Sequence record: NC_014792.1
Length of the DNA: 64,000 nt
Reading direction: 5' to 3' (one strand)
Source of the DNA: Escherichia phage vB_EcoM_VR7
A model generated the notes under the pieces. That model ran no database searches. It was given only the letters and a program-made list of their open reading frames with translations, and was not told the DNA's origin. Below, one piece after another: positions 8,663 through 26,169 of the stretch. How positions within the stretch are numbered: the stretch's first letter is position 1; each line of letters starts with the position of its first letter. Position numbers and translations under genes: made by a program.

Positions 8663-8778
8663 ATCCAAACTCCATATCGATTAATTCATTGTTTGAAGGT
8701 TCATTATACTCTGTTTCGGAACCATTGTAAACAGGTTCCTCTGGCTCGACAGTTTCAAATCTACATACAAACCAAGGT

Positions 8779-11756: not shown

Positions 11757-11786
11757 ATTATACTCCCTCCATCCTTGGAAGTAAAC
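11757..11786 (-). promoter_or_regulatory. Early-type promoter (GTTTAC, 18 nt, TATAAT)
   Basis: Minus sense GTTTACTTCCAAGGATGGAGGGAGTATAAT then GAGGAG RBS and ATG. Confidence 0.45.
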
Positions 11787-17041: not shown

Positions 17042-17599
17042 TTATGCGTTCATAGTTGGGATAACAGTGTTCAGGTATTTTACCAGAACTTTTAATTCGT
17101 CTTTAGTGAATACTACTTCAGCTTCACCATCGTGGGTCTGGATGATAGATAACATATCGCGACCTTGATGTTGATGGACACTGAATTCAGTATTATAATC
17201 ACCTTCTTCATCACCTTCAAAGGTTTCGCTTGAATGCATAATAGCATCACAACCAGGAATTTTCCACTCGAGCTCAGGTACACACTCTTCTTGGAAGAGT
17301 TTAAAAATACAATCAAAGAATTTATCAGAATCGCTGATGCTTAGGCATTCTTCATCTGTTTCGATATTAAACCCGGCGTCGTGCTTATAAATGCGAGCAC
17401 ATACATCATCGTTAATATCAAATACACCGCTAAAACTACCGTCAAGATATCCATCTTTATCCAAAACCATTAAATCATAAAGCGGTTTGATATCATGGAT
17501 AGTTAGTACGATTTTATCGTCTTCTTGACTAAGCTCAATTGCATTATTAACTACTTCAGCAGTCAGTTCGCCAAACAATTCAGTTGTTTCAATAATCAT
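17042..17599 (-). CDS. Hypothetical acidic protein
   Basis: 185-aa ORF, Asp/Glu-rich. Confidence 0.5.
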   Translation of the reverse strand: MIIETTELFGELTAEVVNNAIELSQEDDKIVLTIHDIKPLYDLMVLDKDGYLDGSFSGVFDINDDVCARIYKHDAGFNIETDEECLSISDSDKFFDCIFKLFQEECVPELEWKIPGCDAIMHSSETFEGDEEGDYNTEFSVHQHQGRDMLSIIQTHDGEAEVVFTKDELKVLVKYLNTVIPTMNA

Positions 17600-17609
17600 T
17601 TTCTGTTCC

Positions 17610-17900
17610 TCAACGGTTATGTTTTAAAATACTATAAAGAGCTTCTACTTGACTTGCATCCAGGTAAATAACATCATCATCTTGCTCAATGGAAATCCCA
17701 CCGGTATTTCCTTCAACGAAATTACATTCACACACTTCAACGGTACGGTACACATCACCAGTCGGATGCTCAGGCTCCAGAACAATCACACCATTTTCAG
17801 AATTACCACTTGGGTCATATAACATTACAGTTTCCTCGCTAACCATGAAAAGAATAAACCAATTAAAACAGGCCCTACAGCCATTATTAACCAAGCCCAA
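17610..17900 (-). CDS. Hypothetical protein
   Basis: 96-aa ORF. Confidence 0.4.
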   Translation of the reverse strand: MGLVNNGCRACFNWFILFMVSEETVMLYDPSGNSENGVIVLEPEHPTGDVYRTVEVCECNFVEGNTGGISIEQDDDVIYLDASQVEALYSILKHNR

Positions 17901-17916
17901 GGTTCAAGATAGTAAA

Positions 17917-18174
17917 TCATCTCATGCTCCTATGCCAACAGTTACGTGGCTCACGTTTAAAAACTTTATCATGCATTGATTGACAACCAACACAATATAT
18001 CACACCTTTAATCGCTTGTCTCCGCGCTTCAGGGATTTTTTCATCGCAGTCAAAACAGAATTCAGCAGACTCCCTTTCAACTGCAACCTGTGCTCTCGCA
18101 TGGGTGATAGCGGCTTGTACAACCGCTTCCATCTCTAACTGTTCAGCGCCATCTTTTGCAAATCCAACAGCCAT
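17917..18174 (-). CDS. TraR/DksA-like C4 zinc-finger protein
   Basis: 85 aa; CFDCDEKIPEARRQAIKGVIYCVGCQ (CxxC-17-CxxC). Confidence 0.55.
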   Translation of the reverse strand: MAVGFAKDGAEQLEMEAVVQAAITHARAQVAVERESAEFCFDCDEKIPEARRQAIKGVIYCVGCQSMHDKVFKREPRNCWHRSMR

Positions 18175-18356
18175 TATGCTTTCAACCCATTCAGATATTC
18201 AACCAAATTAGCTTTAGAGTTATTCAAATCACGCTTACACTGTTCTATTCCAGAATATGAATAGCCTTCACATAATTCCACTGCCAGGTCATTAGATGCA
18301 TTTTCAATATGCCAGGCGAGTTTAATAATTTTTTCAATTTGTTCAGTAGTTAACAT
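18174..18356 (-). CDS. Hypothetical protein
   Basis: 60-aa ORF. Confidence 0.4.
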   Translation of the reverse strand: MLTTEQIEKIIKLAWHIENASNDLAVELCEGYSYSGIEQCKRDLNNSKANLVEYLNGLKA

Positions 18357-18550
18357 TATGCAGTCCTGTAATCAATAATTTCGTCAAGGAACATATCCAA
18401 TGCTTCCAGAGCATCAGATACCTTTGCTTCTAATTCTTTACCACCGTCAAGCGATGGGGACCAATGTGTAAAGTCAATTAGTGCTTCATCAGCTTCACGA
18501 ATTGCTGCAACTAATGCAGAGATTCTCTTTGCTTGCTCCAAAGTAATCAT
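18356..18550 (-). CDS. Hypothetical protein
   Basis: 64-aa ORF. Confidence 0.4.
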   Translation of the reverse strand: MITLEQAKRISALVAAIREADEALIDFTHWSPSLDGGKELEAKVSDALEALDMFLDEIIDYRTA

Positions 18551-19015: not shown

Positions 19016-19054
19016 GGGATAATAGTACACCCTTTTGATGAGGATGTAAACCCC
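19016..19054 (-). promoter_or_regulatory. Early promoter-leader cassette
   Basis: Minus sense GGGGTTTACATCCTCATCAAAAGGGTGTACTATTATCCCATCAACTACTG. Confidence 0.45.
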
Positions 19055-19060
19055 TAAATG

Positions 19061-19086
19061 AAAAAAGGTCCACCCGAAGGCAGACC
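19061..19086 (-). terminator. Rho-independent terminator (hairpin + U-run)
   Basis: GGTCTGCC-TTCG-GGTGGACC imperfect hairpin with A6 on plus side, directly after 19094..19477. Confidence 0.5.
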
Positions 19087-19093
19087 TTTTGAA

Positions 19094-19477
19094 TTACTCT
19101 AATGTTAACAGGTACTTGGTTTGAAAGAAAACGCCAACGATATCGTCCAGAGTCGATTGAATAGCCTTTGGTACAACTTTATAGACTCTTTCAGAGCTTT
19201 TAATCATTTCATCTAAAAACAAAATTGTATCTTTCGGCAAGTCCGAGGCGGACGGTAATGCAGCTTTGTATTGTTTCCCACTGTAACCTAACCATTGTTC
19301 ACTGAACTGGTCGAGTGGACCTTGGATTTCTGTGAAGTAGAAATCATAAGCTTTATGGCGGGCATAACTTTTGGTTTCAAGATGGGCAGATTTAAAATAA
19401 GCCAAAGAGACTAATAGCCACCCAATATATGAATCCACCTCAGACCCACGACCTGTTACGAAATCATCGAATTTCAT
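19094..19477 (-). CDS. Hypothetical protein
   Basis: 127-aa ORF. Confidence 0.45.
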   Translation of the reverse strand: MKFDDFVTGRGSEVDSYIGWLLVSLAYFKSAHLETKSYARHKAYDFYFTEIQGPLDQFSEQWLGYSGKQYKAALPSASDLPKDTILFLDEMIKSSERVYKVVPKAIQSTLDDIVGVFFQTKYLLTLE

Positions 19478-24727: not shown

Positions 24728-25027
24728 TTAAAAAGAACCAGAGCCTTTAATTGTGTTCTGGCGACCTTTATTTTCGAATTCAGAATGGTCGATTTCGTAT
24801 GCTTGTGCTACGCCAAAGGCCTTTTTAACTTTAGCTAAAGAACCTTTAGATGTAACAATATTAAAAGTATTGCCTTTGGTAAAATCAACCAAATCCACTT
24901 GCACACCCTGTTTACCGAGGCTTGCTACAATAGCATCAACATATTGTTGGTCTAAATTGCCTTGAACCCCAATTTGAAATGCTTTAGGAACTTTGGCTTC
25001 TGTGATAAATTCTTGATAAGTTAACAT
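24728..25027 (-). CDS. Internal-protein-like (capsid-targeting-sequence-bearing) protein
   Basis: 99 aa; N-terminus MLTYQEFITE matches T4 IP capsid-targeting sequence. Confidence 0.55.
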   Translation of the reverse strand: MLTYQEFITEAKVPKAFQIGVQGNLDQQYVDAIVASLGKQGVQVDLVDFTKGNTFNIVTSKGSLAKVKKAFGVAQAYEIDHSEFENKGRQNTIKGSGSF

Positions 25028-25056
25028 TATACACTATCCCATCATAAAGTAAACAG

Positions 25057-26139: not shown

Positions 26140-26169
26140 ATTATAACCCTATCGTTTGGAGATGTAAAC
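26140..26169 (-). promoter_or_regulatory. Early promoter (GTTTACA, 17 nt, TATAAT) upstream of denV
   Basis: Minus sense GTTTACATCTCCAAACGATAGGGTTATAATGACCC. Confidence 0.5.

What the first reader, a model, noticed from the sequence alone, without database searches (positions are those of the whole stretch)
17917..18174. TraR/DksA-like zinc-finger protein
The 85-aa product has the C4 arrangement CFDCDEKIPEARRQAIKGVIYCVGCQ typical of TraR/DksA-family proteins, which bind the RNA polymerase secondary channel. A phage-encoded member could retune host transcription early in infection.
Basis: partly seen in the sequence, partly recalled or inferred. Interest (0 to 1): 0.45.

Follow-up and report, generated by a model that had tools for sequence, protein, structure and literature searches.

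The report
Phage YbiI/TraR-type zinc-finger protein
This is a real, conserved small zinc-finger gene of a T4-like coliphage from the TraR/DksA family, closest to E. coli YbiI; it probably binds host RNA polymerase early in infection, but databases already annotate it as such and nobody has tested its function.

Summary
Window 17917..18174 on the minus strand encodes an 85-aa protein with CxxC-x17-CxxC. It passes Pfam PF01258 (36.5 bits, cut-off 24.9) and matches PHROG 54, "DksA-like zinc-finger protein". The window comes from a Gaprivervirus (T4-like coliphage). The protein is 100% identical to VR25_104, and other records annotate it as "TraR family zinc finger protein".

More precisely, it is a YbiI-type member. 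Its best solved relative is E. coli YbiI (2KGO), followed by TraR. The AlphaFold model superposes on RNA-polymerase-bound TraR (TM 0.66/0.77, rmsd 1.8 Å). The IPEARR block holding TraR's polymerase-contact arginines R48/R49 is invariant. TraR's DxxDxA tip motif is not kept (here DGAEQL).

Residues 1-12 (MAVGFAKDGAEQ) and 77-85 (RNCWHRSMR) never change in amino acid across 22 distinct coding sequences, despite synonymous codon changes. The tail replaces the YNRRGSKDSQLR tail found in nearly all other YbiI-type proteins.

A T4 early-promoter-like site lies about 850 nt upstream on the same strand.

Best reading: an early-expressed binder of the RNA polymerase secondary channel. This is inferred, not shown. 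The family assignment is ordinary, and the invariant termini are a modest open question.

The parts
17917..18174 (-). Coding sequence of the 85-aa YbiI/TraR-type C4 zinc-finger protein (stop codon 17917..17919)
   Evidence: ORF list. Pfam PF01258 above the gathering score. PHROG 54. 100% identical to phage VR25 gene VR25_104. AlphaFold2 model: helix 4-29, zinc knuckle, helix 62-71.
18139..18174 (-). Codons 1-12, MAVGFAKDGAEQ: the invariant N-terminal tip, predicted start of the long helix. It holds D8/E11 (DxxE) instead of TraR's DxxDxA.
   Evidence: Translation. Residues 2-12 each have one amino acid but 2-4 codons in 22 distinct coding sequences. Shared with bacterial YbiI, which begins MAGGFAKDGAVQ.
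17980..18057 (-). Residues 40-65: the C4 zinc-binding motif CxxC-x17-CxxC, with the IPEARR block (R51, R52 = TraR R48, R49)
   Evidence: Translation. C40, C43, C61, C64, I47, P48, R51 and R52 are invariant in 54 sequences. Aligned without gaps to TraR residues 37-62.
17920..17946 (-). Residues 77-85, RNCWHRSMR: an invariant, clade-specific C-terminal tail that lies beyond the end of TraR. It replaces the canonical YbiI tail YNRRGSKDSQLR.
   Evidence: Translation. One amino acid per position; seven of the nine positions have 2-4 codons, and W and M have only one possible codon. The canonical tail is seen in loci L025-L083 (L055 is cut off by the end of its contig) and in bacteria. An intermediate tail, HNRKVWHRSMR, occurs in P0142.
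19022..19051 (-). T4 early-promoter-like element GTTTACA-N17-TACTAT, the probable start of the transcription unit that contains the gene (about 850 nt upstream)
   Evidence: The pattern GTTTAC-N16-19-TAnnAT has 5 hits in the window, all on the minus strand, against 0.86 expected. A similar element lies 300-900 nt upstream of the gene in 15 of the 17 T4-like relatives L004-L020. This is a consensus match only, not shown to be active.
19063..19090 (-). Terminator-like hairpin (12 bp stem, T run) that closes the preceding unit just upstream of the promoter-like site
18174..18356 (-). Upstream gene (T4 MobD.3-like, DUF7438). Its stop overlaps the start of the zinc-finger gene (TAATG), which suggests translational coupling.
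17825..17920 (-). Downstream 31-aa hydrophobic ORF (phrog_12165). Its ATG overlaps the stop (ATGA), and the RSMR codons AGG AGC provide a Shine-Dalgarno-like sequence. It is not a conserved partner: the downstream gene differs among phages.

Best explanation
The gene encodes a small protein that binds no DNA. It has a TraR-like build: one long N-terminal helix, a four-cysteine zinc knuckle, a short C-terminal helix and a 9-residue tail. It is probably transcribed from a phage early promoter by unmodified host RNA polymerase. Like TraR and lambda Orf73, it would then bind that polymerase. The zinc domain would sit on the beta-prime rim helices through the invariant IPEARR arginines. The N-terminal helix would run down the secondary channel and place the invariant tip (A2-Q12, with D8/E11) next to the catalytic centre. 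The expected result is a ppGpp-independent change in initiation kinetics that shuts down short-lived host promoters (rRNA and ribosomal-protein genes) and frees polymerase and nucleotides for phage transcription. Shown here: family membership, fold, conservation of the arginine pair, purifying selection, and promoter-like context. Inferred: polymerase binding, direction of the effect, timing, and any role of the tail.
For: Pfam PF01258 above threshold; PHROG 54. Sequence matches to solved YbiI (1e-9) and to TraR chains from RNA polymerase complexes (4e-5), with identical IPEARR and GV..CV.CQ blocks. The AlphaFold2 model (pLDDT 73) has helix 4-29, against TraR's helix 2-27, and superposes on polymerase-bound TraR 6N57_M with TM 0.66/0.77 and rmsd 1.8 Å. 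R51/R52, equivalent to TraR R48 (rim helices) and R49 (beta-prime Si3), are invariant in 54 homologues. All five phage TraR homologues tested by Gopalkrishnan et al. bound polymerase and complemented a dksA deletion, including two with an imperfect DxxDxA motif (PMC9239242). Overexpressed YbiI is reported to rescue the dksA auxotrophy (PMC2613031). The extreme conservation of the N-terminal tip fits a contact with the polymerase active-site region, since TraR S2 lies 4.3 Å from the catalytic Mg. Early-promoter-like element upstream on the same strand, with no intervening terminator-like site. The host is E. coli, whose polymerase carries the Si1/Si3 insertions that TraR uses.
Against: TraR's DxxDxA motif is absent. 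The tip reads D8-G-A-E11-Q-L, and the gap-free HMMER alignment (query = TraR + 3) puts D8/E11 out of register with D3/D6. Scores are below the curated NCBIfam cut-offs for TraR (31 vs 108), YbiI (77 vs 96) and the TraR subfamily TIGR02419 (53 vs 60). PMC9239242 warns that not all C4 zinc-finger members of this family act like DksA or TraR. [quoted passage not shown] The predicted C-terminal helix is shorter (62-71) than TraR's (58-73), and the invariant tail has no counterpart in TraR. T4 itself lacks the gene and Mosigviruses carry only a truncated chimera, so it is dispensable. Promoter and terminator calls are consensus matches only.
Confidence: 0.55

Rival explanations
1. It occupies the secondary channel as a decoy or antagonist. 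It binds the channel through the conserved zinc domain but lacks the catalytic-site DxxDxA tip. Its main effect would be to exclude host DksA/ppGpp and the Gre factors. This would block the host stringent response during infection, or alter elongation and pausing on phage DNA, rather than mimic DksA+ppGpp.
For: The rim-helix and Si3 contact residues are kept while DxxDxA is not. [quoted passage not shown] The TraR-like fold is predicted.
Against: The N-terminal tip is the most conserved part of the protein, which is unexpected for a passive plug. Overexpressed YbiI reportedly complements rather than phenocopies the loss of dksA. There is no direct evidence.
Confidence: 0.17
2. It has a YbiI-type function unrelated to RNA polymerase. 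In this reading the two invariant termini (MAxG[FW]..D and the C-terminal tail) form a binding module for another highly conserved target, such as a nucleic acid, the ribosome or an enzyme, and the resemblance to TraR reflects shared ancestry only.
For: The closest relative is YbiI, whose function is unknown. The tail, invariant from bacteria to jumbo phages, has no counterpart in TraR or DksA. Other intermediate-length C4 members of the family lack DksA-like activity. [quoted passage not shown]
Against: The arginine pair that contacts polymerase-specific elements in TraR is invariant. The model matches the polymerase-bound TraR conformation. YbiI rescued the dksA auxotrophy. The two bacterial homologues examined have no shared gene neighbour pointing to another pathway.
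Confidence: 0.23
3. It is a decaying or functionless leftover in the hyperplastic tk-nrdC region of T4-like genomes.
For: T4 lacks the gene. Mosigviruses retain only a 55-aa chimera without the first CxxC. The neighbouring genes vary between phages.
Against: Full-length copies are kept in many genera, with synonymous but not non-synonymous change at 20 terminal positions and at all zinc ligands. The gene sits at a syntenic position across T4-like phages and also occurs in unrelated jumbo phages.
Confidence: 0.03

Closest known systems
E. coli YbiI (PDB 2KGO; NCBIfam NF008243/PRK11019), function unknown
   Same: Best sequence match of any solved protein (E=1e-9). 39% identity over residues 1-69, including the N-terminus (MAVGFAKDGA vs MASGWANDDA). 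Same length class (85 vs 88 aa), same C4 spacing, same IPxARR block. Both extend beyond the end of TraR with a conserved C-terminal tail.
   Different: The score of 77.2 bits is below the curated equivalog cut-off of 96. The near-universal YbiI tail YNRRGSKDSQLR is replaced by RNCWHRSMR. Position 11 is an invariant Glu in this clade and usually Val in the bacterial proteins. The gene is phage-borne and sits in an early transcription unit rather than in a bacterial chromosome.
F-plasmid TraR (PDB 5W1S, 6N57), a ppGpp-independent regulator that binds the RNA polymerase secondary channel
   Same: Same domain family and same three-part build. The model superposes on polymerase-bound TraR with rmsd 1.8 Å over 65 columns. 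IPEARR and GV..CV.CQ are identical, and R48/R49 are conserved as R51/R52. Both are carried by a mobile element of Proteobacteria.
   Different: 31% identity, and only over residues 16-70; the N-terminus cannot be aligned. There is no DxxDxA motif. It has about 3 extra residues at the N-terminus and 9 at the C-terminus. NF010268 scores 31 bits against a cut-off of 108. Polymerase binding has not been tested.
Phage TraR homologues lambda Orf73, P2 Orf82, VHML Orf8 and VP882 Orf61 (PMC9239242)
   Same: Small phage-encoded PF01258 proteins, proposed to shut down host rRNA and ribosomal-protein promoters and divert resources to the phage. Two of them (P2 Orf82 and X. bovienii Gp34) also have an imperfect DxxDxA motif yet still bind polymerase.
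   Different: Those proteins come from temperate phages or prophages and belong to the TraR branch, at 32-49% identity to TraR. This one comes from a strictly lytic T4-like phage and belongs to the YbiI branch. T4-like phages already have other ways to take over the polymerase (my own knowledge), so its contribution may differ.
DksA
   Same: Shares the C4 zinc-finger domain family and, distantly, the fold (7KHI_M TM 0.58, E=0.2).
   Different: It has no two-helix coiled coil, is 85 aa rather than 151 aa, has no ppGpp-binding residues, and scores 14 bits against NF033459 with a cut-off of 105.

Membership tests
[quoted passage not shown] | Profile score above Pfam's gathering threshold | tested here: met
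   36.5 bits against 24.9, E=4.9e-9, residues 38-66.
[quoted passage not shown] | Four cysteines arranged CxxC-x17-CxxC | tested here: met
   C40, C43, C61 and C64. All four are invariant in 54 homologues. The spacing equals that of TraR C37/C40/C58/C61.
TraR-type functional homologues (F TraR, lambda Orf73; PMC9239242) | Conserved DxxDxA motif at the tip of the N-terminal helix, which contacts the polymerase active-site region | tested here: not met
   The tip reads D8-G9-A10-E11-Q12-L13, i.e. DxxE with no Ala at +5. The gap-free HMMER alignment (offset +3) puts D8/E11 opposite TraR A5/A8. An offset of +2, taken from the helix boundaries, would instead align D8-x-A10 with TraR D6-x-A8. That cannot be resolved without coordinates.
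TraR-type functional homologues (F TraR, lambda Orf73; PMC9239242) | Arginine pair equivalent to R48 (beta-prime rim helices) and R49 (beta-prime Si3) in the globular domain | tested here: met
   IPEARR is identical to TraR residues 44-49. R51 and R52 are invariant in 54 sequences.
TraR-type functional homologues (F TraR, lambda Orf73; PMC9239242) | Three-part architecture: a helix of about 26 residues, a zinc globular domain, and a C-terminal helix | tested here: met
   AlphaFold2 gives H4-29, a zinc knuckle and H62-71. Foldseek against 6N57_M gives TM 0.66/0.77 and rmsd 1.8 Å. The C-terminal helix is shorter than TraR's 58-73, and the tail has low confidence.
TraR-type functional homologues (F TraR, lambda Orf73; PMC9239242) | NCBIfam TraR equivalog (NF010268) or TraR subfamily (TIGR02419) curated cut-off | tested here: not met
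   31.3 bits against 108, and 52.9 bits against 59.7.
TraR-type functional homologues (F TraR, lambda Orf73; PMC9239242) | Binds RNA polymerase, inhibits rrnB P1 and complements a dksA deletion | not testable with these tools
   This needs biochemistry or genetics. The only related datum is the YbiI rescue of the dksA auxotrophy, reported as 'data not shown' (PMC2613031).
YbiI family (NCBIfam NF008243 / PRK11019) | Curated equivalog score cut-off | tested here: not met
   77.2 bits against 96. It is nevertheless the best NCBIfam hit, covering residues 1-73.
YbiI family (NCBIfam NF008243 / PRK11019) | Conserved N-terminus M-A-x-G-[FW]-x-x-D | tested here: met
   MAVGFAKDGA here, against MASGWANDDA in E. 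coli YbiI and MAGGFAKDGA in other bacteria.
YbiI family (NCBIfam NF008243 / PRK11019) | Invariant C-terminal tail YNRRGSKDSQLR (my own definition, taken from the alignments made here) | tested here: not met
   Replaced by RNCWHRSMR. The canonical tail is present in E. coli YbiI, in bacterial homologues and in phage loci L025-L083 (L055 is cut off by its contig end). P0142 has an intermediate tail, which suggests the two forms are homologous.
DksA | Two-helix coiled coil, about 150 aa, ppGpp-site residues, NF033459 cut-off | tested here: not met
   85 aa with a single N-terminal helix. 14.1 bits against 105.

The most novel reading that the evidence does not exclude
YbiI-type proteins, this phage clade included, are not simply small TraRs. 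They would form a distinct class of polymerase effector built around two invariant termini. The N-terminus is 2-3 residues longer than TraR's, which already ends 4.3 Å from the catalytic Mg. It would therefore reach into the catalytic or NTP-entry site and act as a direct plug or catalytic modulator. The C-terminal tail, which TraR lacks, would bind a second conserved surface. The switch from YNRRGSKDSQLR to RNCWHRSMR in enterobacterial T4-like and jumbo phages would then be a retargeting, for example to phage-modified polymerase or to a different partner.
Probability: 0.15. Interest if true: 0.6.

Novelty: new member of a known kind. Interest (0 to 1): 0.3.

Why it matters
If the protein binds RNA polymerase as predicted, strictly lytic T4-like phages would use the same ppGpp-independent secondary-channel strategy already shown for the F plasmid and temperate phages. 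That would add one more layer to T4-type host takeover. It would also give the first functional handle on the large YbiI branch of the family: 356 clusters at 50% identity at E<=1e-10, found in bacteria, T4-like phages and jumbo phages. The absolutely conserved termini of this branch point to a very constrained target. As it stands the gene is an annotated but uncharacterised accessory gene, and T4 does without it.

Tried and rejected
1. DNA- or RNA-level constraint as the cause of the invariant tail (an overlap with the downstream gene, or its Shine-Dalgarno sequence). Rejected. Phages whose gene ends in TAA with no overlapping ATG use other codons (AGA TCT ATG AGA, CGT TCC ATG AGA) and still encode RSMR. 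The downstream gene also differs among phages.

2. A frameshift origin of the variant tail from the canonical tail. I checked this by hand, with no tool run, and the shifted frames of a typical canonical tail do not give RNCWHRSMR. The intermediate tail HNRKVWHRSMR in P0142 suggests ordinary divergence instead.

3. A conserved operon partner, as QisA is for VP882 TraR. None was found: the neighbours vary and all are DUFs.

4. Functional clues from the bacterial YbiI gene context. The two loci examined share no neighbour.

5. Literature on YbiI. The full-text search returned mostly ytterbium chemistry. The only functional statement is the one in PMC2613031.

6. A T4 middle promoter (MotA box) directly upstream of the gene. 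There is no minus-strand match between 19022 and 18174.

7. A second family member in the window. None was found.

8. The RefSeq label 'starvation-inducible transcriptional regulator', seen under some megablast hits. It matches PHROG 858, which is the family of the neighbouring gene 19094..19477 (MobD.7/DUF5856), so I attribute the label to that gene and not to this one.

9. The exact helix register relative to TraR D3/D6. This could not be settled, because the tools return no coordinates or residue-level structural alignment.

Full report
**1. Observation**

Window 17917..18174 holds an 85-codon ORF on the minus strand, from ATG to TGA. Its product is MAVGFAKDGAEQLEMEAVVQAAITHARAQVAVERESAEFCFDCDEKIPEARRQAIKGVIYCVGCQSMHDKVFKREPRNCWHRSMR. 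The quoted C4 stretch is residues 40-65, at window 17980..18057. The start overlaps the stop of the upstream gene (TAATG), and the stop overlaps the start of a 31-codon downstream ORF (ATGA). Such tight packing is typical of T4-type genomes (my own knowledge).

**2. Where the window comes from**

A 2.5-kb stretch around the gene matches T4-like coliphages of the genus Gaprivervirus (CJ20, UPEC01, VR20, VR26, SP18) at 90-94% identity. The protein is 100% identical to VR25_104 of phage vB_EcoM_VR25. The gene order on the minus strand is tk, rI, MobD.7-like, MobD.5-like, phrog_10363, two DUF7438 genes (one of them MobD.3-like), this gene, a 31-aa ORF, DUF7189, MobD.1/y05I-like, a membrane protein, and NrdC.11. 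UPEC01 annotates the gene as 'TraR family zinc finger protein', while VR25 calls it hypothetical.

The Merlin genome paper deals with a protein 76.5% identical to this one. [quoted passage not shown] Nolan et al. 2006 had already listed the Pfam hit in phage 44RR. The family-level observation is therefore already in the public record.

**3. Family assignment**

- Pfam PF01258 scores 36.5 bits against a gathering score of 24.9, E=4.9e-9.
- PHROG 54, 'DksA-like zinc-finger protein', matches at 2.8e-20.
- In NCBIfam the best model is the YbiI-type NF008243 (77 bits, cut-off 96). Next come the TraR subfamily TIGR02419 (53 vs 60), the TraR equivalog (31 vs 108) and DksA (14 vs 105). It is thus a member of the domain family but not an equivalog of any named protein.
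- Among solved structures, the best sequence match is E. coli YbiI (2KGO, 1e-9), aligned from residue 1. TraR from polymerase complexes (5W1S, 6N57) follows at about 5e-5, aligned only from residue 16.
- By BLASTP it is 39% identical to YbiI over residues 1-69 and 31% identical to TraR over residues 16-70.

**4. Fold**

An AlphaFold2 model built from 54 homologues has mean pLDDT 73. It shows a helix at 4-29, a zinc knuckle and a helix at 62-71, followed by a low-confidence tail. Foldseek against the PDB returns YbiI, and then TraR as it sits in the E. coli RNA polymerase complex: 6N57_M with TM 0.66/0.77 and rmsd 1.8 Å over 65 columns. DksA matches are weaker. TraR's own elements are a helix at 2-27, a globular domain at 28-57 and a helix at 58-73, and its residue S2 lies 4.3 Å from the catalytic Mg (PMC6970531).

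**5. TraR's functional determinants** (PMC9239242)

- C4 zinc site: kept, and invariant.
- R48 (rim helices) and R49 (beta-prime Si3): kept as R51/R52 within an identical IPEARR block, and invariant in 54 sequences.
- C-terminal helix: predicted, but shorter than in TraR.
- DxxDxA at the helix tip: not kept.

The tip reads D8-G-A-E11-Q-L. With the gap-free HMMER offset of +3, D8/E11 fall opposite TraR A5/A8. An offset of +2, suggested by the helix boundaries, would instead align D8-x-A10 with TraR D6-x-A8. D8 is at least 90% conserved and A10 is invariant. I could not settle the register. Two of the five tested phage homologues also lack a perfect motif and still bound polymerase, though with lower activity. 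The same paper warns that some C4 members of the family have no DksA-like activity.

**6. What is distinctive**

Homologues fall into two groups.

- *This protein's clade.* It includes Gaprivervirus and Dhakavirus phages, Citrobacter phages Merlin and Moon, Enterobacter phage CIP9, Yersinia phage phiR1-RT and 350-kb jumbo coliphages. Every member begins MAVGFAKDGAEQ and ends RNCWHRSMR, while the middle diverges to about 59% identity.
- *The rest.* Other phage YbiI-type proteins (other T4-like genera and many jumbo phages, loci L025-L083) and the bacterial proteins end in YNRRGSKDSQLR, the tail of E. coli YbiI.

In 22 distinct coding sequences of the clade, residues 2-12 each use 2-4 synonymous codons for a single amino acid. 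So do seven of the nine tail residues 77-85; the other two are W and M, which have only one codon. The zinc ligands and R51/R52 behave the same way. The constraint is therefore on the protein. It is not on the Shine-Dalgarno sequence of the downstream gene, which differs among phages and is absent where the gene ends in TAA.

P0142 carries an intermediate tail, HNRKVWHRSMR. The tail lies entirely beyond the end of TraR. In the 50%-identity library the family has 2,819 clusters at E<=1e-3 and 356 at E<=1e-10. Only one representative in the listed top 150 (P0039) carries this clade's exact tail, so the clade is narrow.

In T4-like phages the gene occupies the same interval, between tk-rI-MobD.7 and the membrane protein-NrdC.11 pair, whichever tail it carries.

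**7. Expression context**

A hairpin followed by a T run lies at 19090..19063. It is followed by GTTTACA-N17-TACTAT at 19051..19022, on the gene's strand. The pattern GTTTAC-N16-19-TAnnAT occurs five times in the window, always on the minus strand, against 0.86 expected. The GTTTAC -35 element is, to my knowledge, the hallmark of T4 early promoters.

No minus-strand terminator-like site lies between this element and the gene, and no MotA-box pattern lies there either. Fifteen of the 17 T4-like relatives L004-L020 have a similar element 300-900 nt upstream of their copy. Early transcription by unmodified host polymerase is thus a reasonable inference, but it has not been shown.

**8. Mechanism**

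The most likely reading (about 0.55) is a TraR-like, ppGpp-independent binder of the polymerase secondary channel, made early in infection. The zinc domain would sit on the rim helices and Si3 through R51/R52. The helix would run down the channel, and the invariant tip would lie at the active-site region. That contact would explain why the tip is frozen. By analogy with TraR and lambda Orf73, the outcome would be inhibition of host rRNA and ribosomal-protein promoters and release of polymerase for the phage.

The rivals are:
- a channel-occupying antagonist of DksA/ppGpp and the Gre factors (0.17);
- a YbiI-type function at another target (0.23);
- a functionless relic (0.03), which the codon analysis contradicts.

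The tail's role is unknown. Bacterial gene contexts gave no clue. The only functional statement on YbiI is that overexpression rescues the dksA auxotrophy, reported as data not shown. Its authors nevertheless favoured a role in iron metabolism (PMC2613031).

**9. Verdict**

The feature is real and the family call is correct, but it is already annotated. The protein is an uncharacterised member of the YbiI branch of the TraR/DksA family, not a TraR orthologue. The mechanistic claim is plausible and untested. The invariant termini and the clade-specific tail swap are the only non-routine points. Interest 0.3.

Noticed in passing
L003 2459..2626 (Escherichia phage 308Ecol101PP, Mosigvirus); compare window 17920..18006: Mosigviruses carry a 55-aa in-frame chimera. 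Its N-terminus is DUF7189-like, 54% identical to the product of window 17610..17825. It is joined at a shared 'VIY' to residues 58-85 of the zinc-finger protein, so the helix and the first CxxC are lost. DNA homology to the window (92%) begins at 18006. PHROG 25948 is this chimera family, which explains the odd second PHROG hit covering only residues 57-85.
   Followed up: partly
window 17825..17920 (-): A 31-aa, very hydrophobic ORF (MIYYLEPWAWLIMAVGPVLIGLFFSWLARKL; phrog_12165, 5e-25). Its start overlaps the stop of the zinc-finger gene (ATGA). It is conserved in Gaprivervirus and Mosigvirus but is replaced by unrelated genes in other phages.
   Followed up: partly
window 18174..18356 and 18356..18550 (-): Two adjacent genes of the same family (DUF7438 / phrog_653) that share no detectable BLASTP similarity. 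The second copy appears to be absent from VR25 and UPEC01, which would explain why the megablast hits come in two pieces covering 92-93% of the query.
   Followed up: partly
window 19094..19477 (-): A MobD.7-like gene (DUF5856; PHROG 858, 'starvation-inducible transcriptional regulator'). This RefSeq label appears under hits to the region and could be mistaken for the annotation of the zinc-finger gene. The gene is followed by a strong terminator-like hairpin at 19090..19063.
   Followed up: partly
window 8703..8732, 11757..11786, 19022..19051, 25026..25054, 26140..26169 (all -): Five matches to the T4 early-promoter-like pattern GTTTAC-N16-19-TAnnAT, all on the minus strand, against 0.86 expected by chance. 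This suggests that this part of the window is an early, leftward-transcribed region.
   Followed up: no
window 17042..17599 (-): The MobD.1 homologue matches Pfam T4_y05I_N and T4_y05I_C ('y05I-like putative transcription factor'). A second candidate transcription-related protein therefore lies three genes downstream in the same unit.
   Followed up: no
proteins P0070, P0078, P0099, P0113 and others: Many metagenomic YbiI-like predictions end in ...LQPPRQQGQPxAL plus extra residues instead of YNRRGSKDSQLR. These look like the canonical tail read in a shifted frame, from sequencing or assembly errors or from pseudogenes. That inflates the apparent diversity of tails.
   Followed up: no
loci L046, L056, L058, L080, L081: Some phage YbiI-type proteins replace the fourth cysteine with histidine (C..H..Q, e.g. 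YCVAHQAEHD) yet keep the invariant canonical tail. The zinc site tolerates a C3H variant while the tail does not change.
   Followed up: no
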